Source of the DNA: a plasmid | DNA length: 64,000 nt | Strand: one strand, 5' to 3' | Sequence record: NZ_CP087960.1 | Shown: positions 12,536 through 57,013 of the stretch, piece after piece | Position numbering within the stretch: position 1 is the stretch's first letter | Layout: each line of letters starts with the position of its first letter | Notes under the pieces: generated by a model | What the model saw: the letters and a program-made list of their open reading frames with translations, nothing else | The model's database searches: none | Told to the model about the DNA's origin: nothing | Made by a program: the position numbers and the translations under genes

Positions 12536-12712
12536 TACGATTTAAAAAACACAGATTTAAAGTTTTTAGATTGAAGAAAAAGTAAATAAAGATGAATAAA
12601 ACTAAAGAGCTTACTATTTTTAAAAAGTAGAAAATATAGATATTTTTTAGAGATATGCGTAGAAAAGAGAGGAGCGATTTTTATCAAAACAATTAATTAT
12701 TACACGAGATTA

Positions 12713-13243
12713 ATGACCATGACCTACCAAGACGCAGTTAATTTTTTACAAAAAAAGTGTAAATGTCATTATGATTACTTTAATGAACAATCTTTTAATA
12801 ATTTAAAACATAGAAATTTTAGAACAAAAAATGGTAATTACCGATTGCCTAACCATAATCCAAAGCGGTCGAAATACAAGTCAGATGGATTAATATTACA
12901 TCATGTTTATGAGAATAAGTTTTCAAATTTATCGTACTTGTCATCTATAAGACAACATAGTGACTTTTTATATCAAAGAAAGAAGAATTTGGTCTATTGT
13001 AACTTGTTAGAACATTTGATTTTGCATGCCTTGATTTTTAAAGAAACAAAAAATGAAAAACTTGGTATAGGTGGTTATAAATCTTTGCCAACTCAGATTG
13101 AAAACTTATATTTAGTTGAGGAAAGCCAAAACGAACAAAATGAACAAGCTAAAATTAATCATGAATTAAAATCAGCAATAGGGTTAACTTGGTCTGAAGT
13201 GAATGAAATATTAGTTGCTAGTAAGGCATTATTAAAAAAATAA
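12713..13243 (+). CDS. hypothetical protein (176 aa); stop codon lies within the IS30 target-site duplication
   Basis: Open frame; Cys/His-containing N-terminus (CKCHYDY ... LHHVYENK) not confidently assignable. Confidence 0.35.
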   Translation: MTMTYQDAVNFLQKKCKCHYDYFNEQSFNNLKHRNFRTKNGNYRLPNHNPKRSKYKSDGLILHHVYENKFSNLSYLSSIRQHSDFLYQRKKNLVYCNLLEHLILHALIFKETKNEKLGIGGYKSLPTQIENLYLVEESQNEQNEQAKINHELKSAIGLTWSEVNEILVASKALLKK

Positions 13244-13247
13244 TTAT

Positions 13248-14435
13248 CGTTGATTGTAAAATCAAATTGAACACTTTAGAAAAATAAAAAGTCCATTCGG
13301 ACCTGTTTGATAGAATGTTAATAACCACAAAAACTTTCTATTGGAGGTCAAAATGGACTCTTTACATTCTACCATGAACCAGCACGTTAAAGGAAAGCAT
13401 TTATCATTTGAAGAGCGAGTTATTATTCAATTGCGTTTGAAAGATGGCTGCTCTTTGCGTGCAATTGCTCGTGAACTCAACTGTTCTCCTTCTACTATCA
13501 GTTATGAGATTAAACGTGGCACTGTAAAACTGTATCATGGTAAAGTCAAAAGATACAAGGCTACTCAAGGACATGATGTATATCAAGCTCATCGTAAAAA
13601 TTGTGGGCGCAAATCAGACTTTCTCAAAAAAACTCAATTTATTCACTATGTCCACAAACATTTCTTTAAAGACGGTTGGTCGCTTGATGTTTGCAGTAAT
13701 CGTGCCACTGCTGCTGGCGAATTCTCTAGCAGCGATGTTGTCTGCACCAAAACTCTTTATAATTACGTTGATAAGGGCTTATTAGGCATTTATAATTACG
13801 ACTTGCCTGAGAAGCTTAAACGCAATACCAAGCTTCATCGTGTTCGCAAAAACAAGAAAAAGCTTGGCAGAAGTATTGAAGAACGTCCAAAAGAAATTAG
13901 TGAACGTAATGAATTCGGTCATTGGGAATGCGATTTGGTTCTTGGACATAAGACTAAAGATGATGAAGTGCTGTTAACCTTATCTGAGCGCATGAGTCGT
14001 GAATTCTTAATTATTCGTATTCCCGACAAGACTTCTATCAGTGTCATGCAAGCCTTTAAAGAACTCCAAAGACAATACAGTGAACACTGGAATGATATTT
14101 TTAAAACTATTACCACTGATAATGGTTCAGAATTTGCGGATCTGTCCAACCTAGAAGAAGCATCCAATACACTGGTTTACTATGCCCATCCTTACACTTC
14201 TTGTGATAAGGGAACAGTTGAAAGACACAATGGTCTTATTCGCAGATTCATTCCTAAAGGAGAAGCAATAGCTAACTATTCTTTACAAAATATCATTGAT
14301 ATTGAAACCTGGTGCAACTCATTGCCAAGAAAGATCTTAGCTTATCATACACCAGATGAAATCTTTGAAAGAGAATTAGATCGAATCTATCAAGCAGCTT
14401 AACCAAAAGTGTTCAATTTATTATTGCAATTTACG
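13248..14435 (+). mobile_element. IS30-family insertion sequence, copy 1 (1188 bp), flanked by the 13-bp direct repeat AAAAAATAATTAT (13235-13247 and 14436-14448)
   Basis: Boundaries set by comparing the two identical copies. Imperfect terminal inverted repeats CGTTGATTGTAAAATCAAATTGAACAC / GTGTTCAATTTATTATTGCAATTTACG. Flanking direct repeats read directly. Confidence 0.8.
13341..14402 (+). CDS. IS30-family transposase (353 aa)
   Basis: N-terminal HTH and DDE region typical of IS30 transposases; identical copy at 20767..21828 (minus). Confidence 0.85.
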   Translation: MEVKMDSLHSTMNQHVKGKHLSFEERVIIQLRLKDGCSLRAIARELNCSPSTISYEIKRGTVKLYHGKVKRYKATQGHDVYQAHRKNCGRKSDFLKKTQFIHYVHKHFFKDGWSLDVCSNRATAAGEFSSSDVVCTKTLYNYVDKGLLGIYNYDLPEKLKRNTKLHRVRKNKKKLGRSIEERPKEISERNEFGHWECDLVLGHKTKDDEVLLTLSERMSREFLIIRIPDKTSISVMQAFKELQRQYSEHWNDIFKTITTDNGSEFADLSNLEEASNTLVYYAHPYTSCDKGTVERHNGLIRRFIPKGEAIANYSLQNIIDIETWCNSLPRKILAYHTPDEIFERELDRIYQAA

Positions 14436-14507
14436 AAAAAATAATTATATGTATGTTTAGATATTTATTAATTAAAATTAGACTCGAAGAAAATATTCAA
14501 AGAAAAA

Positions 14508-14545
14508 GAATCAAACATCTTTTTTCCAGTTGTTTGATTCTTTCT
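14508..14545 (-). terminator. Hairpin aagaatcaaac / gtttgattctt; T-run on the minus strand
   Basis: 11-bp perfect stem; one of three hairpins downstream of the minus-strand lanA-like gene. Confidence 0.35.
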
Positions 14546-14568
14546 CAAAACTATTCATCTTCTACTTT

Positions 14569-14598
14569 AGGCTGTTTGACAAACAGCCTTTTTATTTT
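14569..14598 (+). terminator. Hairpin aggctgtttg / caaacagcct + TTTTTATTTT
   Basis: 10-bp perfect stem plus T-run, read directly. Confidence 0.35.
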
Positions 14599-14615
14599 CT
14601 ATTTAATCTACAAAA

Positions 14616-14652
14616 ATCCTGTTGATGGATATTATAATATCCATCAACAGGA
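14616..14652. terminator. Bidirectional terminator: perfect 16-bp stem cctgttgatggatatt / aatatccatcaacagg with A/T runs on both sides; immediately downstream of the precursor-peptide gene
   Basis: Read directly; 24 nt after the lanA-like stop on the minus strand. Confidence 0.55.
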
Positions 14653-14675
14653 TAAATTTTTATAATCTATAAATA

Positions 14676-14774
14676 TTATTTAGTAGAAATTTGATTGCTA
14701 CAAATTCCAGTCCATTCAGCTTCTGTAGCGTTAACTTCTACATCTAGTTCTTGTAATTCAATTAATTCTTGCAT
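14676..14774 (-). CDS. Lanthipeptide precursor peptide (32 aa) MQELIELQELDVEVNATEAEWTGICSNQISTK, class III-type leader (not in ORF track)
   Basis: Hand translation of the minus strand; strong RBS ggaggatcattattATG; leader contains LIELQEL (class III leaders carry a conserved ILELQ-type motif); C-terminal core is rich in Thr/Ser with a single Cys; divergent from the synthetase gene. Confidence 0.6.
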   Translation of the reverse strand: MQELIELQELDVEVNATEAEWTGICSNQISTK

Positions 14775-14836
14775 AATAATGATCCTCCTAAAAAAATATT
14801 AAAATAAAATTTTATAAAACAAATTTTATAGTGAAC

Positions 14837-14865
14837 ATATTAATATTATATTTAATTAATGTCAA
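14837..14865 (-). promoter_or_regulatory. Predicted sigma-A promoter for the precursor gene: -35 TTGACA (14860-14865), 17-nt spacer, -10 TAATAT (14837-14842)
   Basis: Consensus hexamers with ideal spacing read on the minus strand about 60 nt upstream of the precursor ATG. Confidence 0.4.
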
Positions 14866-14883
14866 TAAAAAATAATAAAAATA

Positions 14884-14911
14884 TTGATTTTTGTTAAAAA
14901 TATTGTAGAAT
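14884..14911 (+). promoter_or_regulatory. Predicted promoter for the synthetase operon: -35 TTGATT, 16-nt spacer, -10 TAGAAT; RBS aaggag before the ATG at 14938
   Basis: Hexamers read directly in the divergent intergenic region. Confidence 0.3.
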
Positions 14912-14937
14912 TATGAAAAAAGGAGATATATTTTATC

Positions 14938-17238
14938 ATGAACGATAGATTATTTTGGAACTTTAACGATAAAATATCTGGAAATTATATGTGGTATAGT
15001 ACTTCAATTCTGCCGTTATCATTGAATTATGAAGATTTAAGAAAAGTAAGTAGAAATAAAGATCATTATTTTCTTCAATTTAATTTTTCAAAAAATAAAA
15101 TTCAAGAACATCAAGGGTTTAAAATACATATTTCAGCAACTATTAAGAATTATGAACAGATACTAGACATAATTTTTAATTTTTGCAAAAAAAATAATAT
15201 TACATTTAAATATATTGCTAATAAATATGAACTAGAAAAGAATTTTTCTGGACTATGTTCGTTTTGGAGTACAGGAAAGTTTATAACTATATATCCTCAG
15301 CCTGGAGATTTTAGGTCAATAGTTTCTAAACTTTATTCGCTCCACGAATTAAAAGAACTAAAGGGTATATATATATTAACTGATCGGCGTTATAAGGACT
15401 CTAATGTAATATTTTATAGATATGGAATTCTGAATAATGATTCAAATAAATGTATTTTTGATCCAAATGGAAAATATCTATATACAGACTATTCAATTGC
15501 TAAATATCAGTTACCATATTTTGTAAATGAACCATTTCCCATAAATAAGGATGAGGTAAGTCCTCACAGTAAGTACTTATTTTTGAAGTATACACCTATT
15601 CGGAACATATATAAGAAGTCCTCGGGGTCAGTATATTGTGTAAAAAGTAATAATGGTGATACATATATTCTAAAAAATGCACGTCCAAATTTTTCAGATG
15701 GTAATAGTACTCAAATTGAGAGACTAAAGAATGAAAAAATAAAATTAAAAAAATTAATTGATTTTAATTTCTTTCCGCATGTGGTTGAAAGTTTTATAGA
15801 AAATGATAATTATTTTTTAGTCGAAACATTAGTTACAGGTGTAACTGTTAATAAATTTCGTGCAGAAGATTTATCAGGATATGCAACAGATACCCAAATT
15901 TTACCTAAGAGCTTTAAAGTTTTAGAAATAATAAAAGATATGTGTAGAAAGTTACTTGCATTACATAAAAAAGATATCTTCTTAGGAGATATATCCGCAA
16001 ACAATATATTAGTTAATGAAAAAACATCAACAATTAATTTTGTAGATGTTGAACAGACTGAATTTAATGTTTCTAAGAAAAAGATATCTTGTTTTTTTAG
16101 AACACCGGGTTTTTTTGATAAAAAAACGGCTACTCTTCCTCCTTTGCAGCAAGATATACAGCAATTAGGATATGTAATTATGTCTCTCTTTTGTAGAGCT
16201 AATTCTTTCTTAGAAATTGATTCATCGGGTAAAACTACAATTTCATTTTTTAAGGAATTTGCAAAGATATATCATATACCTAAAGCTTTAGTTGAGATAC
16301 CATTAACTCTGATTAGAAATCCTAGAGAATCTTCTTTAAAAAGTGTTTTAAATGTAAAACTAATTTTAGATTTTGAAAGTGATAAAGAGAAAATTTGTAC
16401 CTTTCCTGAAGATCTTTTGCTTAAGTTAAGACATACTTATTTTTGTGGTAAGTTAGATAATATTTGCTCACAAGATATTGAACAAATATCCTTTTTTAAT
16501 AAAGAAGACGTTTTGTATACAGATAAAATTCTCAATTTAAATATGAGATATTTAGAAAACAAAAATACTAATTCAATATCGCAAGAAAGCAAAAACGCAA
16601 TAAATTTAGCAAAAAAAGAATTAGTAAATTGTTTTTCCAATGCAATTAAATCAGAATTGGAGTCACGTGACTTAAGTATATTTTTAAGTGTTTTAAATTG
16701 TTACTTTTTTGCTAATAACTTTGATATAAATACACAGAAAGAAAAGGAAGATATTGAAACAATAATAGATTACTTGCTAACAAATTACAAAGTCGTTAAT
16801 AATGGTCTTGTTGGATTTCGAAAATCGAAAAAATCAGTTTATATTATGCCATATATATCGAGTGGAACAGCAGGTATTTTGATAGTTTTATTGTTTTATA
16901 AATATATAAGTGACACCGATAAATATGATGAAATAATAAAAACAATAGCATATGGATTTAAATTAACGACGTTACCTAAATCTGGTGGCTTTGCTAATGG
17001 TCTATCTGGAATTGTTTACGCACTTCTTTTATATAGAAAAGTAACAGATGATAGTAAGATTGATAATTTGACTAAGAAAATGATCAATGAATTACATATG
17101 TATACTATATATTTATCAAATAATTTATATGTGATTTCAGATGATTTTAAACATGTAAGCCTAGATTTTGTGGATGGTAATTTAGGCATGATTAAAGTTC
17201 TGGAAAAGGCAAAAAAAGTTCTCAATTGGGAAAGCTGA
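14938..17238 (+). CDS. Class III-type lanthipeptide synthetase (LanKC-like): N-terminal lyase, central Ser/Thr-kinase, C-terminal LanC-like cyclase lacking Zn ligands
   Basis: Kinase-like catalytic loop HKKDIFLGDISANNILVN and DFG-like FVDVEQ. C-terminal GGFANGLSGIVYALLL corresponds to the LanC GxAHGxxG motif but has no His. No CHG or WCxG Zn-ligand motifs (DFVDGNLG instead), as expected for class III rather than class IV. Confidence 0.65.
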   Translation: MNDRLFWNFNDKISGNYMWYSTSILPLSLNYEDLRKVSRNKDHYFLQFNFSKNKIQEHQGFKIHISATIKNYEQILDIIFNFCKKNNITFKYIANKYELEKNFSGLCSFWSTGKFITIYPQPGDFRSIVSKLYSLHELKELKGIYILTDRRYKDSNVIFYRYGILNNDSNKCIFDPNGKYLYTDYSIAKYQLPYFVNEPFPINKDEVSPHSKYLFLKYTPIRNIYKKSSGSVYCVKSNNGDTYILKNARPNFSDGNSTQIERLKNEKIKLKKLIDFNFFPHVVESFIENDNYFLVETLVTGVTVNKFRAEDLSGYATDTQILPKSFKVLEIIKDMCRKLLALHKKDIFLGDISANNILVNEKTSTINFVDVEQTEFNVSKKKISCFFRTPGFFDKKTATLPPLQQDIQQLGYVIMSLFCRANSFLEIDSSGKTTISFFKEFAKIYHIPKALVEIPLTLIRNPRESSLKSVLNVKLILDFESDKEKICTFPEDLLLKLRHTYFCGKLDNICSQDIEQISFFNKEDVLYTDKILNLNMRYLENKNTNSISQESKNAINLAKKELVNCFSNAIKSELESRDLSIFLSVLNCYFFANNFDINTQKEKEDIETIIDYLLTNYKVVNNGLVGFRKSKKSVYIMPYISSGTAGILIVLLFYKYISDTDKYDEIIKTIAYGFKLTTLPKSGGFANGLSGIVYALLLYRKVTDDSKIDNLTKKMINELHMYTIYLSNNLYVISDDFKHVSLDFVDGNLGMIKVLEKAKKVLNWES

Positions 17239-17251
17239 GGTGAATTAGCTA

Positions 17252-18835
17252 ATGATAAAATCATTTTTTAAGTCTAATTATAAGTATACTTTTATTTTTA
17301 TTGTTTCGACTGTTATTGGTGGGGCCTTAGTTGCTTATGGGAGTTACGGTTGGACGCCTGCTACTGACTCTTTAAAAAATCTTGATACTAAAAAATTTGT
17401 TTTGTGGATTATTTTGATAGTAGTGACATCAGCTGGTGGTAGAGTCATGCAATTCTTAGCTGGTTATCTCTTTACAAAACAAGAGCAAGAATATTTTCAT
17501 AATCTAAGGAAAAAGCTTATAAATCATTATTATGAAAGTAAGCCTGTAGATAAGCTATCTAATATGCAAAATAGATTAACAAATGATCTAAAAATTATTA
17601 GCGATCAAGCTTTAGATCCAGTATCTAATGTAGTCCTTTGTGTAGTTGATTTAGTATTTTCTGCATATGTAGTTTTAACTTTTAATTTTTGGCTGCTTTG
17701 TTTAATTTTAGTTTTAGCAGTAATTATGCTTTATTTGCCAGATTTGTTGTCTAAGCAATTAGAAAAAGCAACAAATGAAGTTTCCTCTAACTATAGCAAG
17801 TATATTGATACCATTGAAAAATGGTTAGCAGGGCTAGCAGTTTTACAAAGATATCGGTCAAAGACAAAATTATCTGCTGCCTTAGCTAGAAGTTCTTCAG
17901 GATTAGAGAAAGCCACAGTAATTCGAGATAAAAAATCTGTTGAATTACGTAATCTCACTTATACTGCTAATATGGTTGCTCAAGGAGCTGTTCTTCTGGC
18001 AACTGGATTATTAGTATTGAATCATCAGTTAACTATTGGTACCCTTATGAGTATTGCGAATTTTTCTAGCTTAATTTTTTCTCAGCTTGTTAATGTTACT
18101 TCACAGATTGGTTCAATTAAGTCAACTAGATCGTTAGCAGATAGTGTAATGAAAGAAATTAAAGAGTTACCAAATTCAGAGAAAAAAGAAGACTCTCTAA
18201 CAAACTTTGACACTCTTTCTACTCATGGTTTAGTTCTTCAGTATCCTAATGGTGAAAAAATCCAGTATCCTGATATTCAGATTAAGGCGGGAGAAAAAGT
18301 ACTTTTAAGTGGTGATAGTGGAACCGGAAAGTCAACGCTGTTTAAAATGATTTTAAATGAAATAAAGCCTACTCAAGGTAAAATTGTTTTTAAAGATAAA
18401 CTAGGCAAGATTCTCAATCCTGATTATTCGCAAATTGGATATATTCCGCAAGATCCAGTTGTTTTTCCAGGAACAATTGAAGATAATATTACGATGTTTA
18501 ATAGTAGACTGAATAAAAAAGCAGCGAATTGGGCACAAAAGGTTCAGTTAGCAACAGACTTTGAAAAGTTCCCTGATGGTATTAAAACTGTCGTAGATCT
18601 AGATAAAAAGAATCTTTCTGGAGGACAAAGACAAAAAATAATTTTGGCTCGAACTGAAGTATATAACAGCAAGATTATCTTAATTGATGAAGGTACTTCG
18701 GCAATAGATTCGGTTGCAACAGAGCAAATTCTAAAAAATATTCTTAAAGAACCTGCAACGGTAATCTTTATTGCGCATAATCTAACTGATGAAATGGTTC
18801 AATTATTTGATCGTAGGATTAACTTAAGTAAGTAA
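17252..18835 (+). CDS. ABC transporter, fused permease-ATPase exporter (no N-terminal C39 peptidase domain)
   Basis: Six N-terminal TM helices; Walker A GDSGTGKST; signature LSGGQRQKIILAR; Walker B ILIDEGTSAIDS. Confidence 0.85.
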   Translation: MIKSFFKSNYKYTFIFIVSTVIGGALVAYGSYGWTPATDSLKNLDTKKFVLWIILIVVTSAGGRVMQFLAGYLFTKQEQEYFHNLRKKLINHYYESKPVDKLSNMQNRLTNDLKIISDQALDPVSNVVLCVVDLVFSAYVVLTFNFWLLCLILVLAVIMLYLPDLLSKQLEKATNEVSSNYSKYIDTIEKWLAGLAVLQRYRSKTKLSAALARSSSGLEKATVIRDKKSVELRNLTYTANMVAQGAVLLATGLLVLNHQLTIGTLMSIANFSSLIFSQLVNVTSQIGSIKSTRSLADSVMKEIKELPNSEKKEDSLTNFDTLSTHGLVLQYPNGEKIQYPDIQIKAGEKVLLSGDSGTGKSTLFKMILNEIKPTQGKIVFKDKLGKILNPDYSQIGYIPQDPVVFPGTIEDNITMFNSRLNKKAANWAQKVQLATDFEKFPDGIKTVVDLDKKNLSGGQRQKIILARTEVYNSKIILIDEGTSAIDSVATEQILKNILKEPATVIFIAHNLTDEMVQLFDRRINLSK

Positions 18836-19650: not shown

Positions 19651-20760
19651 CTAAGCCCATTCTTTCTTTTCTACATAGAAACCCCAGAATGTTTTCCCTT
19701 TATATTCTTGTTCCTTTAAGCCACCGGTGGCATACCAAGAACCTTTTTTAGCTTTAAGTTTTATACGAATTTTTTGGCCAGCTAATAATTTGTCTTTTTC
19801 ACTTTCAGTAAATTTATGAGTAGACCAGCTATTTTTAAATCTAATTTCTTTACCATTTGGTGTATAAATACCTGTAAAATGATTATTGTCGATAAATTTT
19901 ATGGTGTTCTTATCATAGGCAAAACCCCAGAACGTTTTATCTTTATATTTTTGTTGAGAAAGTTTTCCTTCGACACTTAATGGAGTACCTTTTTTAGAAG
20001 TACATTCTATTGTAATTGTTTCTCCATTTAGCAAAGTTTGGAGTTCAGAATCAGTAAATTTATGAGAGGACCAACTATTTTTAAATGTAACTTTTTGACC
20101 AGTTGGCTTAAATATTCCTGTAGTTCGTGTACCGTCATCAGGGAATTCAATTTTATTTACGTCAAAGCTAAAACCCCAGAATTTTTTATTTTGATACGTT
20201 TTCTCAGATAATTTACCAGGAACAATAATAGCAGTTCCCTTTTTAGATTTACAGTTAACCTTAATAGTTTGACCAGCAAGAAGCTGTTGAATTTCTTCAT
20301 CAGTAAATCTATGACCACTAAATATTCTACTGAAGTTGATCTCTTCTCCAGTTGGACTATAGATTCCATTAACTCTTTCAGCTGGTTTTGGTAAATCAAG
20401 TGCAAGTTTTTGCAATGTTGAATTATTTTTAATTACATTAATATTTTGACGAATTATTGGCATATCATGCTTAACAATAGTCGTCATCAAAGTTGGAATT
20501 TTTTCAAATTCAATCTTGAATAGTTTAACTTCTTTCATATATTCAAGTAGTTGTTTAGTAACATGTGGGCTAGAAATTTGACAGCCTTGTGTTAGAAGAG
20601 CACTAGCTAAGCCATTAAAGGTAAGCTCATATACATTATTTTTGACTTTAAGTAGAGCAGTTGGATCTTTAGGATTGGAAATATCTGTAATAGTAGTTAG
20701 TTGTGTAGCACCAGTTCCGATATTATTTTTCTTCGTAAATTGCAATAATAAATTGAACAC
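19651..20760 (-). CDS. Protein with three ~75-aa DUF3945-like repeats (GIYxPxGxEIxF...FTDxE...AGQxIx...KKGT...FWGF). C-terminal portion of an ancestral topoisomerase fusion; present start codon and first 9 codons are IS30-derived
   Basis: Three internal repeats read directly in the translation; the ORF start lies inside IS copy 2 (IS boundary at 20733/20734). Confidence 0.55.
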   Translation of the reverse strand: MFNLLLQFTKKNNIGTGATQLTTITDISNPKDPTALLKVKNNVYELTFNGLASALLTQGCQISSPHVTKQLLEYMKEVKLFKIEFEKIPTLMTTIVKHDMPIIRQNINVIKNNSTLQKLALDLPKPAERVNGIYSPTGEEINFSRIFSGHRFTDEEIQQLLAGQTIKVNCKSKKGTAIIVPGKLSEKTYQNKKFWGFSFDVNKIEFPDDGTRTTGIFKPTGQKVTFKNSWSSHKFTDSELQTLLNGETITIECTSKKGTPLSVEGKLSQQKYKDKTFWGFAYDKNTIKFIDNNHFTGIYTPNGKEIRFKNSWSTHKFTESEKDKLLAGQKIRIKLKAKKGSWYATGGLKEQEYKGKTFWGFYVEKKEWA

Positions 20761-21921
20761 TTTTGGTTAAGCTGCTTGATAGATTCGATCTAATTCTCTT
20801 TCAAAGATTTCATCTGGTGTATGATAAGCTAAGATCTTTCTTGGCAATGAGTTGCACCAGGTTTCAATATCAATGATATTTTGTAAAGAATAGTTAGCTA
20901 TTGCTTCTCCTTTAGGAATGAATCTGCGAATAAGACCATTGTGTCTTTCAACTGTTCCCTTATCACAAGAAGTGTAAGGATGGGCATAGTAAACCAGTGT
21001 ATTGGATGCTTCTTCTAGGTTGGACAGATCCGCAAATTCTGAACCATTATCAGTGGTAATAGTTTTAAAAATATCATTCCAGTGTTCACTGTATTGTCTT
21101 TGGAGTTCTTTAAAGGCTTGCATGACACTGATAGAAGTCTTGTCGGGAATACGAATAATTAAGAATTCACGACTCATGCGCTCAGATAAGGTTAACAGCA
21201 CTTCATCATCTTTAGTCTTATGTCCAAGAACCAAATCGCATTCCCAATGACCGAATTCATTACGTTCACTAATTTCTTTTGGACGTTCTTCAATACTTCT
21301 GCCAAGCTTTTTCTTGTTTTTGCGAACACGATGAAGCTTGGTATTGCGTTTAAGCTTCTCAGGCAAGTCGTAATTATAAATGCCTAATAAGCCCTTATCA
21401 ACGTAATTATAAAGAGTTTTGGTGCAGACAACATCGCTGCTAGAGAATTCGCCAGCAGCAGTGGCACGATTACTGCAAACATCAAGCGACCAACCGTCTT
21501 TAAAGAAATGTTTGTGGACATAGTGAATAAATTGAGTTTTTTTGAGAAAGTCTGATTTGCGCCCACAATTTTTACGATGAGCTTGATATACATCATGTCC
21601 TTGAGTAGCCTTGTATCTTTTGACTTTACCATGATACAGTTTTACAGTGCCACGTTTAATCTCATAACTGATAGTAGAAGGAGAACAGTTGAGTTCACGA
21701 GCAATTGCACGCAAAGAGCAGCCATCTTTCAAACGCAATTGAATAATAACTCGCTCTTCAAATGATAAATGCTTTCCTTTAACGTGCTGGTTCATGGTAG
21801 AATGTAAAGAGTCCATTTTGACCTCCAATAGAAAGTTTTTGTGGTTATTAACATTCTATCAAACAGGTCCGAATGGACTTTTTATTTTTCTAAAGTGTTC
21901 AATTTGATTTTACAATCAACG
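20734..21921 (-). mobile_element. IS30-family insertion sequence, copy 2 (1188 bp, identical to copy 1, inverted), flanked by the 13-bp direct repeat TATTATTTTTCTT (20721-20733 and 21922-21934)
   Basis: Same termini as copy 1; flanking direct repeats read directly; inserted within a reconstructable ORF. Confidence 0.8.
20767..21828 (-). CDS. IS30-family transposase (identical to 13341..14402)
   Basis: Identical 353-aa translation. Confidence 0.85.
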   Translation of the reverse strand: MEVKMDSLHSTMNQHVKGKHLSFEERVIIQLRLKDGCSLRAIARELNCSPSTISYEIKRGTVKLYHGKVKRYKATQGHDVYQAHRKNCGRKSDFLKKTQFIHYVHKHFFKDGWSLDVCSNRATAAGEFSSSDVVCTKTLYNYVDKGLLGIYNYDLPEKLKRNTKLHRVRKNKKKLGRSIEERPKEISERNEFGHWECDLVLGHKTKDDEVLLTLSERMSREFLIIRIPDKTSISVMQAFKELQRQYSEHWNDIFKTITTDNGSEFADLSNLEEASNTLVYYAHPYTSCDKGTVERHNGLIRRFIPKGEAIANYSLQNIIDIETWCNSLPRKILAYHTPDEIFERELDRIYQAA

Positions 21922-23392
21922 TATTATTTTTCTTTAAAAACTTTCGTAAAAAGCTAAGAGTTGGTTTAGCCGGAGCTGGATTACTCCCCTCATAAATGTA
22001 TGGAGTAACAGTAGAAAGGAATCCTTGATGATTAGACTTATTAGAATCAGAATCTAGATCTTGTTCGTTGAAGACCAATTTATAATTTAACTTCTTAGGG
22101 AGATTAGAAACAGACTTAAAGTCTGGATTATTGGCTAAATGAGCTTTTTGTTGTTCGTAGACGTAATCTTCACATAAGATTGCTAAGTAGGCTTTAGCCA
22201 AAGTTATATATATTTCCTTACCGCATTTTCCAAACTTTTTTTCTAGTTCATCTAAGCTAGTGGGTACATTAATTCCTGGACGATTGGCACCGTGATCAGC
22301 CTTTGCAGTAATGTATTTTTTACGTGCTGTTCTATGAGTTAATAGAGAATGATCTACTCCAACAACATTGGCAATGCTGTCAACTAAAGGGAGTAACTCA
22401 TCAAAGTCTTTTTGATCTACCTTGGTATCTTCTGTACGAGGATAAGAGACGTATTCCGCTTCATACATCTTTTGATAAGTATCTTTGACTTGGCTAGTAG
22501 TAAACCCTTTTTTACTTAATAAGTCAGCTAATCCCATTAAGTTAATCAAGGAAGGCGGTTCAGTAGTTTTGGTTACATTAGAATCAATAACTACGTTATC
22601 CGGCTTATAGTTTAGTAAATCGTTATTAGCATCAGATTTATGCTCAAATCTAAATGTGTCATCATCTTGAAAGTTTCTTTTAAAAACATTCCCGTTGGCA
22701 TCTTTATATCGAACTTCAAAGTAAGGTTTCTTTACATAGTTTTTTATCTTTTGCCATTGTTGATAAACAATATTAGCTAATGCTGATTTAAATCTACCTA
22801 ATCTAAGTACTTTAGGATTGTATCCAGCTTGCTTAGCTGCAAGAGTTGCAATTCTACTAAGTTGCATTGAACCATAGTCAAGACGTTGTCGTGAAGTTGC
22901 TTCTAAGTATTCACCACTATGAAACTTATCACTAACATCTTTGCGATTAATGATAGCTTCTTTGATTTTGGACTCAGTTGAAAAATAGGCTCTATAAACG
23001 GTACTTCTCCACCCAATAGCTTCGATGATTTCCCAAGCGAGCAAATCACCTTCACCTGAGGGATCGCAGTCAGTAGCAATTACAATTGCATCTTTATCTT
23101 GAGCAGCCTGTTTAATTTGTTGCACATTTTTCTTCGCATCAGTATCTAAATATGTTTTTTTCCATGCAAAATCGTTTAAATTCCAAGGAAAAACATCATA
23201 AGAATTCCATTCTGAATATCTAGCTATCTTATCAGCTGATACTTGATCTTGAGGATCTTTTAACTTTAACAAATGACCGTGGCTGTGTACTAGCTCATAA
23301 GTATCAGTACCAATATTACCTGAAATTCCACCAAGTACTTGTGCAAACTTTTGATATGCACTAGATTTTTCTGCTAAGATTAATAGTTTCAA
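21899..23392 (-). CDS. Type IA DNA topoisomerase (TopB/Topo III-like) Toprim + catalytic domain; C-terminus truncated by IS30 insertion (last 7 codons are IS-derived)
   Basis: Toprim DxD motif ATDCDPSGEGDLLAWEI (compare E. coli TopB GDPDREGQLL); catalytic Tyr motif YVSYPRTED (compare LISYPRTD); RIATLAAKQAGY resembles the topoisomerase TR motif. Confidence 0.7.
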   Translation of the reverse strand: MKLLILAEKSSAYQKFAQVLGGISGNIGTDTYELVHSHGHLLKLKDPQDQVSADKIARYSEWNSYDVFPWNLNDFAWKKTYLDTDAKKNVQQIKQAAQDKDAIVIATDCDPSGEGDLLAWEIIEAIGWRSTVYRAYFSTESKIKEAIINRKDVSDKFHSGEYLEATSRQRLDYGSMQLSRIATLAAKQAGYNPKVLRLGRFKSALANIVYQQWQKIKNYVKKPYFEVRYKDANGNVFKRNFQDDDTFRFEHKSDANNDLLNYKPDNVVIDSNVTKTTEPPSLINLMGLADLLSKKGFTTSQVKDTYQKMYEAEYVSYPRTEDTKVDQKDFDELLPLVDSIANVVGVDHSLLTHRTARKKYITAKADHGANRPGINVPTSLDELEKKFGKCGKEIYITLAKAYLAILCEDYVYEQQKAHLANNPDFKSVSNLPKKLNYKLVFNEQDLDSDSNKSNHQGFLSTVTPYIYEGSNPAPAKPTLSFLRKFLKKNNTLIVKSN

Positions 23393-25525: not shown

Positions 25526-28012
25526 TTATCTTTCTAAATTCCGTGATTGCATAGCGTGTTTTCTTGCAAGTTGTTTTTTATTAATTTCTCCGCGTCTTGT
25601 TGCCCACTTTTCCTTAAATTTTTGGGACAATTCCATAGTTTTAGAGTCCTGAGTTGGTTGCATTCTTCCACGGCTAATCAAAAAGGCTTGTCTATGCATT
25701 TCTGCTTTAGACAAACCTTTTTCTTTTTGTGTTCTTGATTGTTGATCAGGTATATTTTGCAATTTATTAATATTTGACTTAATTGCCACTATAAATTTTG
25801 AATCGTAGAATTTGCTTTTACTTAACGCATTTTGTTGAGAAAGTAAAGTTTTTTGAGTGTTTTTAATAATAGAGCTTTCATTAGTATCATCAATCTCTTT
25901 AGTATTAATATTTAAAGTTGCAAAAAGCCCTTTATGTTTATTGGCAGATTCAGCGTTTCCCCAGACTGTGTATTCTACTTGGCTTGGATTAGATGAATTA
26001 ACCGATACATCAGTTAAATTTAGTCGTTTCTTTTGATTAAGTTCCTGGATAGCTTGAGCAACTTTAATTGGCTTCTCATTGATTAGGTCATAGTTTTGTT
26101 GCTCTTCTAAACTTAGTTTGTTTAGATACTCAACATAACCCCATGCTTTGACGTTTCCACCTACATCTTTACGCTCATCAAAGTTTTCGACCTTTAGCGG
26201 CTTAAAATTTTTCATTGGATAAGTGCCAGGATTAATAGGTCGAAATAAGGAGTAGTAGCGGTAAATTTTTGGTTTTTCATTTTCTACTACTTTTTCATTT
26301 TCTTGCGATAATTGACGGATTTTTTGTTTTATAGTTGGAAATTGTTTATCGAAATATGAGGAAATCTTCTTTTTGATATCTGGAGTAAAAGTAGAATATT
26401 TGATATCAATTTTACTGTTATAAATTTCTTTATCTTTAATTACCGAGTTATTTAATCCAAGATTTGAAGCATAAGTTTCAAAGGCTCGTGCAAACACTTC
26501 GCTAGGTGTCTTTAAATAAGTACTCTCTTTAGGAGTGAGCGCCGTTGAGCTGTTTCCGATTTCTGCTTGAATAGATTGCAAAGAGTCGGAAAAGTTTTTG
26601 TTAATAGATAGAGGTAAGTTAGATCTACCATTGTAGTTATAGTCTAAGAAATGACCGTATTCATGTACAAAACTTTGTAAGCCCGTTTCTTTAGTTTTCT
26701 TATCATATCTAAAGTCGACTGCTAAAGTATTGTTGATTGGTGTAAACATGCCTAGTGCTCTATGATTTTTGAGCTTTCTAAATCGCAAAATAGGTTTAAT
26801 TCCATTCTTTGCATGAGGTAAAGCAGAAACAGTTTGTTTTAATTCGGGAATAAATTTTTTCAATTCTTCCAAGTCTACATCATTATCAATTTCGACTTTT
26901 TTAAAATGTTTAGATAAATCATTAGTGAGACGTTCCATTTCTGTTTGAGTTGTTTTATCAATATTCTTTTTAGTTTGAAAGAATGTTGCATGACTTGATC
27001 TAGCTTGCTCAGCATCATATTGTTGTTGTAGCGTTAAGTTGTATGTATCTTTTAAGTATCGATTAACAAAGTTTAACGTTTGATTTTTGGATAAAACGTT
27101 TGAAACTGTTGTTTTAGGAATTATTTGATCTTTATTAATAAGGTATTCCGATAGTTCTTTTTCAATTGCAGATTTCGGTTTTTGGTTTTTCTCAGTATCT
27201 TCTTTATTAATTCTTATCTTTAATAAGCTTTCTTCTGGTGTATTTTGCCATTCTTCATAAGTTGGCATATGAGCTTGTTTTGCAAATATTTCATAGTAAG
27301 CATCAGGGGAAAACAAATATTCATTGCTACTCCCGCTATTTTTAGGATCAGTTAAGTTATCAATAAGTTCGTTGAGTGGCTCTAATGATTTTTCTTTAAA
27401 GTTTCGTTTTAAGTCAATATTTAGTTTGTCGTATCCAATCAATAGATCACGACTGTATGCTGTAAAGTATACTTTTTCATTTCTATTATTTGCTCTAGTT
27501 ATCCAAGGAGTGGTATCTGTGTCTGGCAAACCATTATAGTAAGTATTTAATGAGGCTCGTTGCTTAATAGTTTCGTTCGTATCAGTCCAGTATCTTCTTT
27601 GACCATAGTAAGTGGAAGGTATTGAACCGTTGGGTTTGATAAATATAAAAGTTTTTTCACCATCTTTTTGATACTGATAGATATGATCTTCCCATTTATC
27701 TTTTTGAGTGTTTTTAAATTTGAATTTCTTTTTGAACTCTATTTTTTCTTCAGGAGCCAGTTTAGAACTATCAACTTTTTTTATCTCATTTTCTTTAATA
27801 TCTAGCTTATGAGATAAGGCTAAGACTTCGTCTTTATCTGTATAGTCGCCATTTTCAACTCCATTTTTGTACAGATATCGTGCAGTTTTTCGATAAAGCG
27901 TATATAGTGTATCGTTAGACGTAACAGTTATTGTTTTGCTGATGTGAGTTAAACCATATTTTTGTTTCATTAAATCAACAATTTTATTTGGTGTATTAAT
28001 TTGATCAGTCAT
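25526..28012 (-). CDS. Large conjugation-associated protein (828 aa) with a zincin-like HEXXH motif (ArdC/metallopeptidase-like C-terminal domain?)
   Basis: FVHEYGHFLDYNY contains HEYGH; size and context typical of plasmid accessory proteins; the family assignment is tentative. Confidence 0.35.
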   Translation of the reverse strand: MTDQINTPNKIVDLMKQKYGLTHISKTITVTSNDTLYTLYRKTARYLYKNGVENGDYTDKDEVLALSHKLDIKENEIKKVDSSKLAPEEKIEFKKKFKFKNTQKDKWEDHIYQYQKDGEKTFIFIKPNGSIPSTYYGQRRYWTDTNETIKQRASLNTYYNGLPDTDTTPWITRANNRNEKVYFTAYSRDLLIGYDKLNIDLKRNFKEKSLEPLNELIDNLTDPKNSGSSNEYLFSPDAYYEIFAKQAHMPTYEEWQNTPEESLLKIRINKEDTEKNQKPKSAIEKELSEYLINKDQIIPKTTVSNVLSKNQTLNFVNRYLKDTYNLTLQQQYDAEQARSSHATFFQTKKNIDKTTQTEMERLTNDLSKHFKKVEIDNDVDLEELKKFIPELKQTVSALPHAKNGIKPILRFRKLKNHRALGMFTPINNTLAVDFRYDKKTKETGLQSFVHEYGHFLDYNYNGRSNLPLSINKNFSDSLQSIQAEIGNSSTALTPKESTYLKTPSEVFARAFETYASNLGLNNSVIKDKEIYNSKIDIKYSTFTPDIKKKISSYFDKQFPTIKQKIRQLSQENEKVVENEKPKIYRYYSLFRPINPGTYPMKNFKPLKVENFDERKDVGGNVKAWGYVEYLNKLSLEEQQNYDLINEKPIKVAQAIQELNQKKRLNLTDVSVNSSNPSQVEYTVWGNAESANKHKGLFATLNINTKEIDDTNESSIIKNTQKTLLSQQNALSKSKFYDSKFIVAIKSNINKLQNIPDQQSRTQKEKGLSKAEMHRQAFLISRGRMQPTQDSKTMELSQKFKEKWATRRGEINKKQLARKHAMQSRNLER

Positions 28013-56196: not shown

Positions 56197-57013
56197 GTAG
56201 ATATACCTTCTTTACTTTTTTCTTCTTTCTATTTTTTCGATGGGTGAACCAGTAGAATAAAGCCATTGCAGAAGTTACAACAATTGCTACAATAGCAGCT
56301 TTCCCTAATGAAGTTAGTCCACCATCAGCATTAATATTCTCAGCATGGTAAGGAACACGGTGCCCTCTAACTAGCAACCTATGAGTATTTTGGAAAAGCG
56401 GAGTACAAGTAACCAAAGTTACATAATCTTGATTAGGATCAACCTTAAAATATTTCAAATTATTAGGCAAAACCTTTTTAATTTGATCTACCTGATAAGC
56501 GTGAATTTCCTTGTTCACTTTGATATAAAACTTGTCGCCTTTCTTTAACTTAGGCAAATCGGTAAAAAGACGATTAAGACTTAATCCACTATGCCCAGTA
56601 AGTACGGAGTGCTTACCTTTACCGCCTGTTGGCAGGCTGGTATTTTCTAACACTCCAATACCGTTATCAAGTGCGGTTTGCGATGTTCCCATGTAAACCG
56701 GCAAAACTTCTTTAATCTTAGGAATACTTAAGGCTGCAACAGGCTTTAATTCAGCTTCAGCAACATCAACCGAATTTTTATTTTTCTTCTTAGTTGCAGA
56801 ATTAGCAAATGGATCTACAGGTTTCTCAGTTTTAGGTGCCTTATAAAAAGACTCCAGATAGCTACTACCGTGTCTCTCCGATCTTGCAACTTCAGCCTCT
56901 TGCTTTTGTGCCAAAAAGTAATCATTAAGAAAAGGATAAGTTGAAAGCCCTAAAATTGTTAGGCACAATAACCCCCAGATTACTAGCGTTAAAGGTTTTT
57001 TACCTTTTTTCAT
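56177..57013 (-). CDS. Class C (pilus-associated) sortase
   Basis: Active-site TLVTCTP; N-terminal TM and C-terminal TM + basic tail (AAIVAIVVTSAMALFYWFTHRKNRKKKK), typical of SrtC. Confidence 0.75.
   Translation of the reverse strand: MKKGKKPLTLVIWGLLCLTILGLSTYPFLNDYFLAQKQEAEVARSERHGSSYLESFYKAPKTEKPVDPFANSATKKKNKNSVDVAEAELKPVAALSIPKIKEVLPVYMGTSQTALDNGIGVLENTSLPTGGKGKHSVLTGHSGLSLNRLFTDLPKLKKGDKFYIKVNKEIHAYQVDQIKKVLPNNLKYFKVDPNQDYVTLVTCTPLFQNTHRLLVRGHRVPYHAENINADGGLTSLGKAAIVAIVVTSAMALFYWFTHRKNRKKKKVKKVYLHEKRKK

What the first reader, a model, noticed from the sequence alone, without database searches (positions are those of the whole stretch)
14676..18835. Compact class III-like lanthipeptide cluster with a divergently transcribed 32-aa precursor missed by ORF calling
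A 32-aa minus-strand ORF has a strong RBS, a consensus TTGACA-17-TAATAT promoter and a perfect bidirectional terminator. It encodes MQELIELQELDVEVNATEAEWTGICSNQISTK. The LIELQEL leader matches the conserved ILELQ-type recognition motif of class III LanKC leaders. The adjacent 766-aa enzyme has lyase-kinase-cyclase architecture, and its C-terminal LanC-like domain lacks the His/Cys Zn ligands, which is the class III hallmark. An ABC exporter without a peptidase domain follows. The core peptide has a single Cys and lacks the SxxSxxxC labionin motif, so the ring topology would be atypical: possibly one MeLan ring from T22/C25 plus dehydro residues. There is a single precursor copy and no protease or immunity gene. 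The cluster sits on a conjugative plasmid of a lactic acid bacterium and is bracketed by two IS30 copies.
Basis: partly seen in the sequence, partly recalled or inferred. Interest (0 to 1): 0.8.

Follow-up and report, generated by a model that had tools for sequence, protein, structure and literature searches.

The report
Compact class III lanthipeptide gene cluster
A Lactobacillus plasmid carries a real three-gene cluster (32-residue precursor, a shortened LanKC-type enzyme, an ABC exporter) that most likely makes a small peptide with one four-residue thioether ring; it belongs to an uncharacterised sub-family found in many host-associated lactobacilli.

Summary
The 32-aa minus-strand ORF (14676-14774), its AGGAGG ribosome site, its TTGACA-17-TAATAT promoter and a 17-bp perfect bidirectional terminator are all present. 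The promoter, ribosome site and ORF are conserved in two diverged loci, with dN/dS about 0.2.

The 766-aa protein is a lyase-kinase-cyclase enzyme. Its best solved relatives are ThurKC, SalKC, PneKC and CuvL. It has no Zn ligands. A 527-aa ABC exporter without a peptidase domain follows.

New here: the enzyme belongs to a compact clade of 738-770 aa, mostly Lactobacillaceae. Its cyclase domain is about 95 residues shorter than in canonical LanKCs. It scores below NCBI's LanKC cut-off (279 against 575 bits).

In 20 partner precursors, 29 of 30 core cysteines have Ser/Thr at position -3. The family makes one or two [S/T]-x-x-C rings, not the SxxSxxxC labionin motif. The window peptide is the one-ring form (Thr22-Cys25).

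The two IS30 copies are separate later insertions, each with its own 13-bp target duplication. An IS-free plasmid that is 99.9% identical exists.

The small ORF is already deposited as 'hypothetical protein' on hundreds of contigs. I found no characterised product.

The parts
14676..14774 (-). Precursor gene (lanA-like), 32 aa: leader MQELIELQEL..., core ...TEAEW-T22-G-I-C25-SNQISTK
   Evidence: ORF. Orthologues sit in the same divergent position in L005, L008 and at least 12 further loci. dN/dS is 0.19-0.24. The exact sequence occurs on 288 public contigs.
14784..14789 (-). Ribosome-binding site AGGAGG, 9 nt before the ATG of the precursor
   Evidence: Sequence. Conserved in the window, L008 and L005.
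14837..14865 (-). Promoter-like site for the precursor, TTGACA-17-TAATAT
   Evidence: 10 of 12 positions. The -35 TTGAC and -10 TAATAT are conserved in three diverged loci. Transcription was not tested.
14616..14653 (.). Bidirectional intrinsic-terminator-like hairpin (17-bp perfect stem, T-runs on both sides) ending the precursor transcript
   Evidence: RNA fold is -29.3 kcal/mol, z = -7.5.
14884..14911 (+). Promoter-like site for the lanKC-ABC operon, TTGATT-16-TAGAAT (TG-extended -10)
   Evidence: 9 of 12 positions. The region is conserved in L008 and L005.
14938..17238 (+). Compact LanKC-type lanthipeptide synthetase, 766 aa: lyase (about residues 40-206), kinase (about 228-445), shortened Zn-free LanC-like domain (about 490-766)
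17252..18835 (+). ABC exporter (fused permease and ATPase, 527 aa) without a C39 peptidase domain
   Evidence: An ABC transporter of this type lies beside the synthetase in every complete family locus examined.
13248..14435 (+). IS30-family element, copy 1 (context, not part of the system), with target duplication AAAAAATAATTAT
   Evidence: Absent from the plasmid contigs L001/L002, whose synthetase is 100% identical; L001 DNA is 99.9% identical.
20734..21921 (-). IS30-family element, copy 2 (context), with target duplication TATTATTTTTCTT; it splits the plasmid topoisomerase gene
   Evidence: L001/L002 carry an intact 846-aa topoisomerase.

Best explanation
This is a functional, minimal class III-type (LanKC) lanthipeptide gene cluster of a compact, uncharacterised sub-family.

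Proposed mechanism:
1. The 32-aa precursor is transcribed divergently from its own promoter.
2. Its N-terminal helix (E3-L4-x-x-L7-Q8-x-L10) docks on the synthetase.
3. The kinase domain phosphorylates Thr22, and possibly also Thr17, Ser26, Ser30 and Thr31.
4. The N-terminal lyase domain eliminates phosphate to give dehydrobutyrine.
5. Cys25 adds to Dhb22, giving one methyllanthionine ring that spans four residues (Abu-Gly-Ile-Ala). This step is templated by the shortened, Zn-free C-terminal domain.
6. The ABC transporter exports the peptide.
7. The leader is removed by proteases encoded elsewhere. No protease is present in the cluster, as is common in class III.

Shown here: gene content, domain architecture, conservation of catalytic residues, conservation of the precursor and of the [S/T]xxC rule.

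Inferred: every chemical step, the leader cleavage site, export, and the biological role. The role is most likely interference competition or signalling among related gut and vaginal lactobacilli.
For: Architecture:
- Pfam finds RamC_N at 9.5e-30, LANC_like at 5e-11 and Pkinase at 3e-7.
- NCBIfam scores LanKC at 279 bits and LanL at 178 bits.
- The best PDB sequence hits are ThurKC, TherKC-like 9wj0, PneKC and SalKC.
- The AF2 model has pLDDT 89.3 and pTM 0.88.
- It matches full-length ThurKC by Foldseek (E 1e-30, TM 0.68).

Catalytic residues are invariant or nearly invariant across 47 LanKCs. The lyase residues are K62, H64, K91, K114, Y119, D149 and R161. The kinase residues are K246, E266, D351, N356 and D370.

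No Zn ligands are possible: the protein has no Cys after residue 588 and no conserved His.

Precursor:
- It lies in the same divergent position in every family locus examined.
- The leader M-x-E-L-x-x-L-Q-x-L is conserved.
- dN/dS is 0.19-0.24, the same as for the synthetase gene.
- The promoter and RBS are conserved.

Ring:
- 29 of 30 core Cys in 20 precursors have Ser/Thr at -3, against 2-9 of 30 at every other offset (binomial 9e-19).
- Aromatic residues are enriched at -4 and -2.
- Paucisalibacillus FTWKCPDVPEK has no other Ser/Thr in its core.

The three-gene unit (precursor, LanKC, ABC) recurs in chromosomes and on plasmids.
Against: - No transcript, peptide or mass data exist, so no chemical step is shown.
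- The enzyme scores far below NCBI's curated LanKC cut-off (279 against 575 bits).
- Its cyclase domain is about 95 residues shorter than canonical ones.
- Residues reported as essential for cyclisation in ThurKC/TherKC (R609, D666, F769, D770; PMC13504147) have no conserved counterparts here. The D770 position is N in this protein and variable in the clade, on a weak alignment. The C-terminal domain may therefore not be a true cyclase, and ring closure could be spontaneous.
- The 20 precursors are not fully independent; there are about 14 lineages.
- Supernatants of bee-gut Lactobacillus Firm5 strains encoding lanthipeptide clusters showed no inhibition of one test organism (PMC10673953). An antibiotic role is unproven.
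Confidence: 0.75

Rival explanations
1. The enzyme only dehydrates (kinase plus lyase). The shortened C-terminal domain is a substrate-binding or scaffold remnant. The thioether then forms spontaneously, or the product is a linear dehydro- or phospho-peptide.
For: The cyclase half is shortened by about 95 residues. Only the last three GxxG repeats align to ThurKC. The positions equivalent to TherKC F769/D770 are not conserved. Streptococcal relatives of about 650 aa, in which Pfam sees no LANC_like domain, still pair with TxxC peptides.
Against: The C-terminal domain is under clear constraint. P638, Y639, G643, G646, P680, G688, G747, N748, G750 and C588 are invariant in 15 sequences that are as little as 34% identical to the window enzyme. 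The domain folds confidently. The strict -3 spacing of Ser/Thr to Cys shows that ring formation is the selected outcome, whoever catalyses it.
Confidence: 0.15
2. It is a canonical class III cluster making a labionin or a larger lanthionine. For example, Cys25 adds to Dhb22 and the enolate attacks a dehydrated Thr17, or Cys25 links to Ser30/Thr31.
For: Thr17 is conserved in the three closest precursors (TEAEWT). Class III enzymes are known for labionin chemistry (PMC13504147).
Against: The spacing is T-x4-T-x2-C, not S-x2-S-x3-C. Across the family, no Ser/Thr position other than -3 exceeds background. Several cores have no second Ser/Thr upstream at a fixed distance, and one has none downstream.
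Confidence: 0.06
3. The small ORF is a chance ORF in AT-rich intergenic DNA, and the LanKC-like protein acts on something else or is a relic.
For: The leader-plus-[ST]xxC pattern alone is expected 2-3 times per 64 kb. Promoter-like sites are not enriched in the region.
Against: An ORF with the same leader and the same core rule sits in the same position in loci whose synthetases are only 34-40% identical. dN/dS is about 0.2. The RBS and promoter are conserved.
Confidence: 0.02

Closest known systems
ThurKC / ThurA (class III-a, Bacillus thuringiensis; PDB 8sao, 8sam, 8sap)
   Same: It has the same lyase-kinase-cyclase order. It is the best sequence hit (127 bits for the single protein, 214 bits for the clade profile) and the best Foldseek hit. 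The lyase and kinase catalytic residues are conserved. The C-terminal domain is Zn-free. Recognition is leader-dependent, through an LxxLQ-type helix.
   Different: ThurKC has 859 aa and a 14-helix cyclase barrel (PMC13504147). This enzyme has 766 aa, about 12 helices in residues 491-761 and about 95 fewer residues between the kinase DFG-Asp and the PY motif. ThurA-type cores are Thr-rich with STxSNxC, whereas this one has a single TxxC.
PneKC and SalKC (class III-b, Streptococcus; PDB 8w7j, 9ugq)
   Same: They are trifunctional LanKCs from Lactobacillales and give full-length structural matches.
   Different: Their cores carry SxxSxxxC plus SxxxC (PMC13504147; PMC7268733). The pneumococcal clusters encode a prolyl oligopeptidase (PMC7268733), and none is present here. 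The enzymes are about 870 aa.
antiSMASH-predicted class III clusters of bee-gut Lactobacillus Firm5 (PMC10673953)
   Same: They probably belong to the same clade. The bee-gut isolate Lactobacillus sp. ESL0245/0246 carries a synthetase 39% identical to this one, with a partner peptide of the same type. That paper notes conserved lyase and kinase residues and the absence of Zn ligands.
   Different: That study reports prediction only. As far as the passages read here show, it gives no class III precursor rule, ring topology or product. This copy is plasmid-borne in the L. gasseri group.
Nisin ring B type (Me)Lan rings (Thr-x-x-Cys) of class I/II lantibiotics (general knowledge, not tested here)
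   Same: The predicted ring size is the same: a thioether from Dhb at position i to Cys at i+3.
   Different: Those rings are made by Zn-dependent LanC or LanM cyclases within multi-ring peptides. Here the peptide has only one ring (two in some relatives) and the enzyme is Zn-free.

Membership tests
Class III lanthipeptide synthetase (LanKC) | N-terminal phospho-Ser/Thr lyase domain with its catalytic Lys/His/Arg/Tyr set | tested here: met
   RamC_N scores 9.5e-30. K114, Y119 and R161 are invariant, and K62, H64, K91 and D149 are at least 90% conserved, in 47 LanKCs.
Class III lanthipeptide synthetase (LanKC) | Central Ser/Thr-kinase domain with catalytic Lys, Glu, Asp, Asn and DFG-type Asp | tested here: met
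Class III lanthipeptide synthetase (LanKC) | C-terminal LanC-like domain lacking the Cys-Cys-His zinc ligands | tested here: met
   LANC_like scores 42 bits over residues 596-724. There is no Cys after residue 588 and no conserved His. However, the domain is about 95 aa shorter than in canonical members.
Class III lanthipeptide synthetase (LanKC) | Passes the curated NCBIfam LanKC equivalog threshold (NF038151, 575 bits) | tested here: not met
   The score is 279 bits, with the best stretch covering only profile positions 36-518 of 833. NCBI names clade members 'LanC family protein' or 'LanKC N-terminal domain-containing protein'.
Class III lanthipeptide precursor | Leader with the (I/L)(L/F)(D/E)LQ or LxLQ helix motif | tested here: met
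   The window leader contains L-I-E-L-Q. L-x-x-L-Q is found in all 15 Lactobacillaceae-type partner peptides that carry this leader. The LxLQ motif is described in PMC7268733.
Class III lanthipeptide precursor | Core with an S-x-x-S-x-x-x-C (or STxSNxC) labionin/lanthionine motif | tested here: not met
   The core has one Cys in T-G-I-C. The family rule is [S/T]-x-x-C (29 of 30 Cys). The motifs of subclasses III-a to III-d are given in PMC13504147.
Class III lanthipeptide system | The enzyme actually phosphorylates, eliminates and cyclises the peptide | not testable with these tools
   This needs co-expression or an in-vitro assay with mass spectrometry.
Class IV lanthipeptide synthetase (LanL) | Zn-binding Cys-Cys-His in the cyclase domain, and the LanL profile scoring best | tested here: not met
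   LanL scores 178 bits against 279 bits for LanKC. The Zn ligands are absent.
IS30 composite transposon carrying the cluster | One target-site duplication flanking the whole IS-cargo-IS unit, with the cargo absent where the ISs are absent | tested here: not met
   Each IS has its own 13-bp duplication. The IS-free plasmid L001 carries the cluster at 99.9% identity.

The most novel reading that the evidence does not exclude
The cluster represents a distinct, so far unnamed LanKC subclass, besides III-a to III-d. Its features would be: a cyclase domain lacking about two helical hairpins and the ThurKC/TherKC catalytic network; a dedicated substrate rule of aromatic-[S/T]-x-x-C; and products that are very small peptides with one or two four-residue thioether 'staples'. 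The family is spread through host-associated Lactobacillus (johnsonii, the gasseri group, jensenii, helveticus/kefiranofaciens, taiwanensis and bee-gut species). Related forms occur in Enterococcus, Streptococcus and Paucisalibacillus. Given their small size and the lack of immunity genes, the peptides may act as signals rather than antibiotics.
Probability: 0.4. Interest if true: 0.65.

Novelty: new variant of a known kind. Interest (0 to 1): 0.5.

Why it matters
Class III lanthipeptides are the least understood with respect to cyclisation chemistry, because they use no zinc. A natural minimal enzyme that makes only a single i-to-i+3 ring from a 32-residue precursor would be a simple model for asking what the Zn-free domain really does.

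The family occurs in well-studied probiotic and vaginal or gut lactobacilli, for example L. johnsonii N6.2 and L. jensenii. [quoted passage not shown] The product could therefore matter for strain competition or communication. Here it is on a conjugative plasmid and so is transferable.

Tried and rejected
- A megablast of the cluster against PLSDB plasmids found only a 230-bp tail match. The cluster is absent from the deposited relatives. Comparison showed that pHL20_1 keeps the last 73 bp of the ABC gene, so it has a deletion there rather than this plasmid having an insertion.
It was replaced by exact look-ups.
- Literature searches found no characterised product and no description of the [S/T]xxC rule. 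The terms tried were class III lanthipeptide or LanKC with Lactobacillus, lactic acid bacteria, jensenii, johnsonii and Paucisalibacillus. Only antiSMASH-level mentions turned up (PMC10673953). The review PMC8341899 has no mention of lactobacilli or Firmicutes. The library lacks most subscription papers, so absence is not proof.
- The 176-aa ORF (12713-13243), considered as a possible protease or immunity gene, has no Pfam or PHROG hit and is not found with the cluster elsewhere.
- The 70-aa ORF (14453-14665) overlaps two terminator hairpins and was called by only one annotation pipeline. I treated it as spurious.
- The composite-transposon idea was rejected.
The helix count of the cyclase domain therefore rests on the DSSP string and the length comparison only.


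Full report
**1. What is in the sequence**

The minus-strand ORF 14676..14774 encodes MQELIELQELDVEVNATEAEWTGICSNQISTK. Several expression signals surround it.
- An AGGAGG lies 9 nt upstream of the start codon.
- A TTGACA-17-TAATAT promoter-like site lies at 14865-14837.
- A 17-bp perfect palindrome at 14616-14653 has T-runs on both sides. As RNA it folds at -29.3 kcal/mol, z = -7.5 against shuffles.

Promoter-like sites are not enriched in this AT-rich stretch (31 found, 34.8 expected). The promoter call therefore rests on conservation. The -35, the -10, the RBS and the divergent lanKC promoter region are all retained in two diverged loci, L008 and L005.

Two ORFs are transcribed divergently from the precursor:
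- a 766-aa ORF (14938..17238);
- a 527-aa ABC transporter (17252..18835) with ABC_membrane and ABC_tran domains and no peptidase domain.

**2. The enzyme**

Family and structure searches agree on a LanKC-type enzyme.
- Pfam finds RamC_N (lyase, 9.5e-30), Pkinase and LANC_like.
- NCBIfam ranks LanKC (279 bits) above LanL (178 bits), but both are far below their curated cut-offs of 575 and 650.
- The best solved relatives by sequence are ThurKC, a TherKC-like entry, PneKC and SalKC.
- An AlphaFold2 model built on 47 homologues is confident (pLDDT 89.3, pTM 0.88).

The lyase residues (K62, H64, K91, K114, Y119, D149, R161) and kinase residues (K246, E266, D351, N356, D370) are invariant or nearly so across the 47 sequences. 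The C-terminal domain cannot bind zinc in the LanC manner. There is no Cys after residue 588 and no conserved His. The lyase-kinase-cyclase reading and the class III assignment therefore hold.

**3.

A clade of 738-770-aa proteins, mostly from Lactobacillaceae, has 250-278 residues between the kinase DFG-type Asp and the conserved PY motif of the cyclase. Canonical LanKCs have 350-390 residues there.
- Only the last three GxxG repeats align to ThurKC.
- The model shows about 12 helices in residues 491-761. A 14-helix barrel is described for ThurKC and TherKC (PMC13504147).
- A search of 1.84 billion representative proteins with residues 470-766 found only 55 hits. About 20 of these cover most of the domain. 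Canonical ~880-aa LanKCs match only its last 150-180 residues.
- Residues reported as essential for cyclisation in TherKC/ThurKC (R609, D666, F769, D770; PMC13504147) have no conserved counterparts. The D770-equivalent is Asn here and variable in the clade (the alignment is weak).
- The domain is nevertheless under constraint. P638, Y639, G643, G646, P680, G688, G747, N748, G750 and C588 are invariant.

**4. The precursor is real and belongs to a family with its own rule**

A small ORF lies upstream of the synthetase (or of its operon), on the opposite strand, in every complete family locus I examined.

| Source | Precursor |
|---|---|
| L005 (synthetase 67% identical) | MQELIKLQEVDLDENATEAEWTAFCGNQMTNRCN |
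| L008 = L. johnsonii N6.2 (86%) | MQELIELQELDVDVDTTEAEWTGICSNQISR |
| Bee-gut Lactobacillus ESL0245 | ...LFSKFCSNKFTIFCEI |
| L. taiwanensis | ...TISTDSCTVTTKC |
| L. kefiranofaciens / helveticus | ...GPWFSYKCTINN |
| L. jensenii / psittaci | ...FTNFTWKCKMTD |
| Levilactobacillus | ...GWTIACSHDCKV... |

Several metagenomic forms add to this list. All of the Lactobacillaceae forms listed above share the leader M-x-E-L-x-x-L-Q-x-L.

In a table of 20 precursors, 29 of 30 core cysteines have Ser or Thr exactly three residues upstream. Every other offset is at background, 2-9 of 30 (binomial 9e-19; about 14 independent lineages). Aromatic residues are enriched at -4 and -2.

Cores carry one or two such motifs. 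The window peptide (TGIC) is a one-ring form whose closest two-ring relative is L005 (TAFC...TNRC). The same switch is seen between L094 (TFYC...TISC) and L173 (TFYY...TISC).

The motif also appears with related enzymes in other genera:
- Paucisalibacillus (FTWKC, with no other Ser/Thr in the core);
- Enterococcus gallinarum (FTFKC);
- Streptococcus (TIFC).

dN/dS of the small ORF is 0.19-0.24, like the synthetase gene at 0.19-0.23. The pattern alone would occur 2-3 times by chance in the window, and one other ORF matches it, lying inside the coordinates of a larger ORF on the same strand. It is position and conservation that make the case.

**5. Mechanism**

The best-supported reading has these steps.
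1. The leader helix binds the synthetase.
2. Thr22, and possibly other Ser/Thr residues, is phosphorylated.
3. Phosphate is eliminated to give Dhb.
4. Cys25 adds to Dhb22 to give one four-residue methyllanthionine ring.
5. The ABC transporter exports the peptide.
6. The leader is trimmed by proteases encoded elsewhere.

The gene content, domain integrity and [S/T]xxC rule are shown. All the chemistry, the cleavage site and the biological role are inferred.

The main rival is that the shortened C-terminal domain no longer catalyses cyclisation, so that the ring closes spontaneously or not at all. A labionin or larger ring is unlikely, because no second Ser/Thr position is conserved.

**6. Context**

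The window is a plasmid of the L. gasseri group. It is 92% identical over 20 kb to pHL20_1. It carries a Rep3 initiator, a MobL relaxase, a T4SS coupling protein and a lysozyme/M23 hydrolase. 'Conjugative plasmid of a lactic acid bacterium' is therefore supported.

pHL20_1 lacks window 12691-18762 but keeps the last 73 bp of the ABC gene. It lost the cluster by deletion.

The two IS30 elements (13248-14435 and 20734-21921) are 1188 bp each, identical and inverted. Each has its own 13-bp direct repeat, and the second one splits the topoisomerase gene. The metagenomic contigs L001 and L002 carry the same plasmid without either IS: their synthetase is 100% identical and L001's DNA is 99.9% identical. 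The ISs are later, independent insertions and not a composite transposon that delivered the cluster.

**7. Known or new**

The exact 32-aa peptide is already in public collections as 'hypothetical protein' on 288 contigs. The L. johnsonii N6.2 variant is AHA98177.1. It is therefore not universally missed by gene callers.

antiSMASH-level reports of class III clusters in Lactobacillus exist, for example in bee-gut Firm5, where Zn ligands were noted as absent and supernatants of lanthipeptide-cluster strains did not inhibit the one pathogen tested (PMC10673953).

I found no characterised product. I also found no description of the compact cyclase or of the [S/T]xxC rule. The most recent subclassification (III-a to III-d; PMC13504147) lists only SxxSxxxC and STxSNxC-type cores. 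The literature library is incomplete, so prior work in subscription journals cannot be excluded.

**8. Verdict**

It is best filed as a new variant of a known kind: it works like a class III lanthipeptide system. It meets the architectural criteria. It fails two family criteria, the curated LanKC score threshold and the canonical core motif.

Interest is moderate. It is attractive for RiPP enzymology as a minimal Zn-free ring-forming system, and for Lactobacillus ecology. It is not a categorical surprise.

Noticed in passing
window 13235-13247 / 14436-14448 and 20721-20733 / 21922-21934: Each of the two identical 1188-bp IS30-family copies is flanked by its own 13-bp direct repeat (AAAAAATAATTAT and TATTATTTTTCTT). 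From general knowledge, this is much longer than the 2-3 bp duplications usual for IS30. Both targets are AT-rich.
   Followed up: partly
window 19651-20760 and 21899-23392 (minus strand): The plasmid's 846-aa Toprim/topoisomerase gene is split by the second IS30 copy. It is intact in the otherwise 99.9% identical contigs L001/L002 and in pHL20_1.
   Followed up: yes
window 18763-18835, compared with L012 (NZ_CP072179.1): The related plasmid pHL20_1 lacks the whole cluster but retains the last 73 bp of the ABC transporter gene. This is a deletion scar. Identity also changes at this junction, from 99.8% on the left to 91.6% on the right.
   Followed up: partly
L025 2768-2863, L103 1767-1862, L101 36-128, L148 66-161: Streptococcal relatives of the synthetase are about 650 aa, and Pfam sees no LANC_like domain in them. 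They lie near peptides such as MNVQQLNQLPKETITTQGRPILTIFCPIATS. These carry the same TxxC motif but pair with an even shorter C-terminal domain and a different leader.
   Followed up: no
L173 2735-2842 compared with L094 2659-2766: Two near-identical precursors differ by Cys to Tyr in the first ring motif (LTFYC against LTFYY). This is a natural two-ring to one-ring switch, parallel to L005 against the window peptide.
   Followed up: no
window 14938-17238, residue Cys588: Cys588 is the only Cys or His conserved in the C-terminal domain of the compact LanKC clade (15 of 15 sequences). Its role is unknown.
   Followed up: no
window 12713-13243 (+): This 176-aa ORF has no Pfam or PHROG match. It lies in the segment that is missing from pHL20_1 together with the cluster. 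It is not found next to the cluster in the chromosomal loci.
   Followed up: partly
window 14453-14665 (+): This 70-aa ORF was called by one annotation pipeline. It overlaps two terminator-like hairpins (14569-14589 and 14616-14653) and has no family match. It is probably not a gene.
   Followed up: partly
window 57013-59241, 59941-61761 and 25526-28012 (minus strand): The plasmid encodes SpaA-type Gram-positive pilin subunits and a DarA_C (defence against restriction) protein. Toxin-antitoxin modules (MazEF-like and RelB-like) lie upstream of the cluster, by homology to the L001 and pHL20_1 annotations.
   Followed up: no
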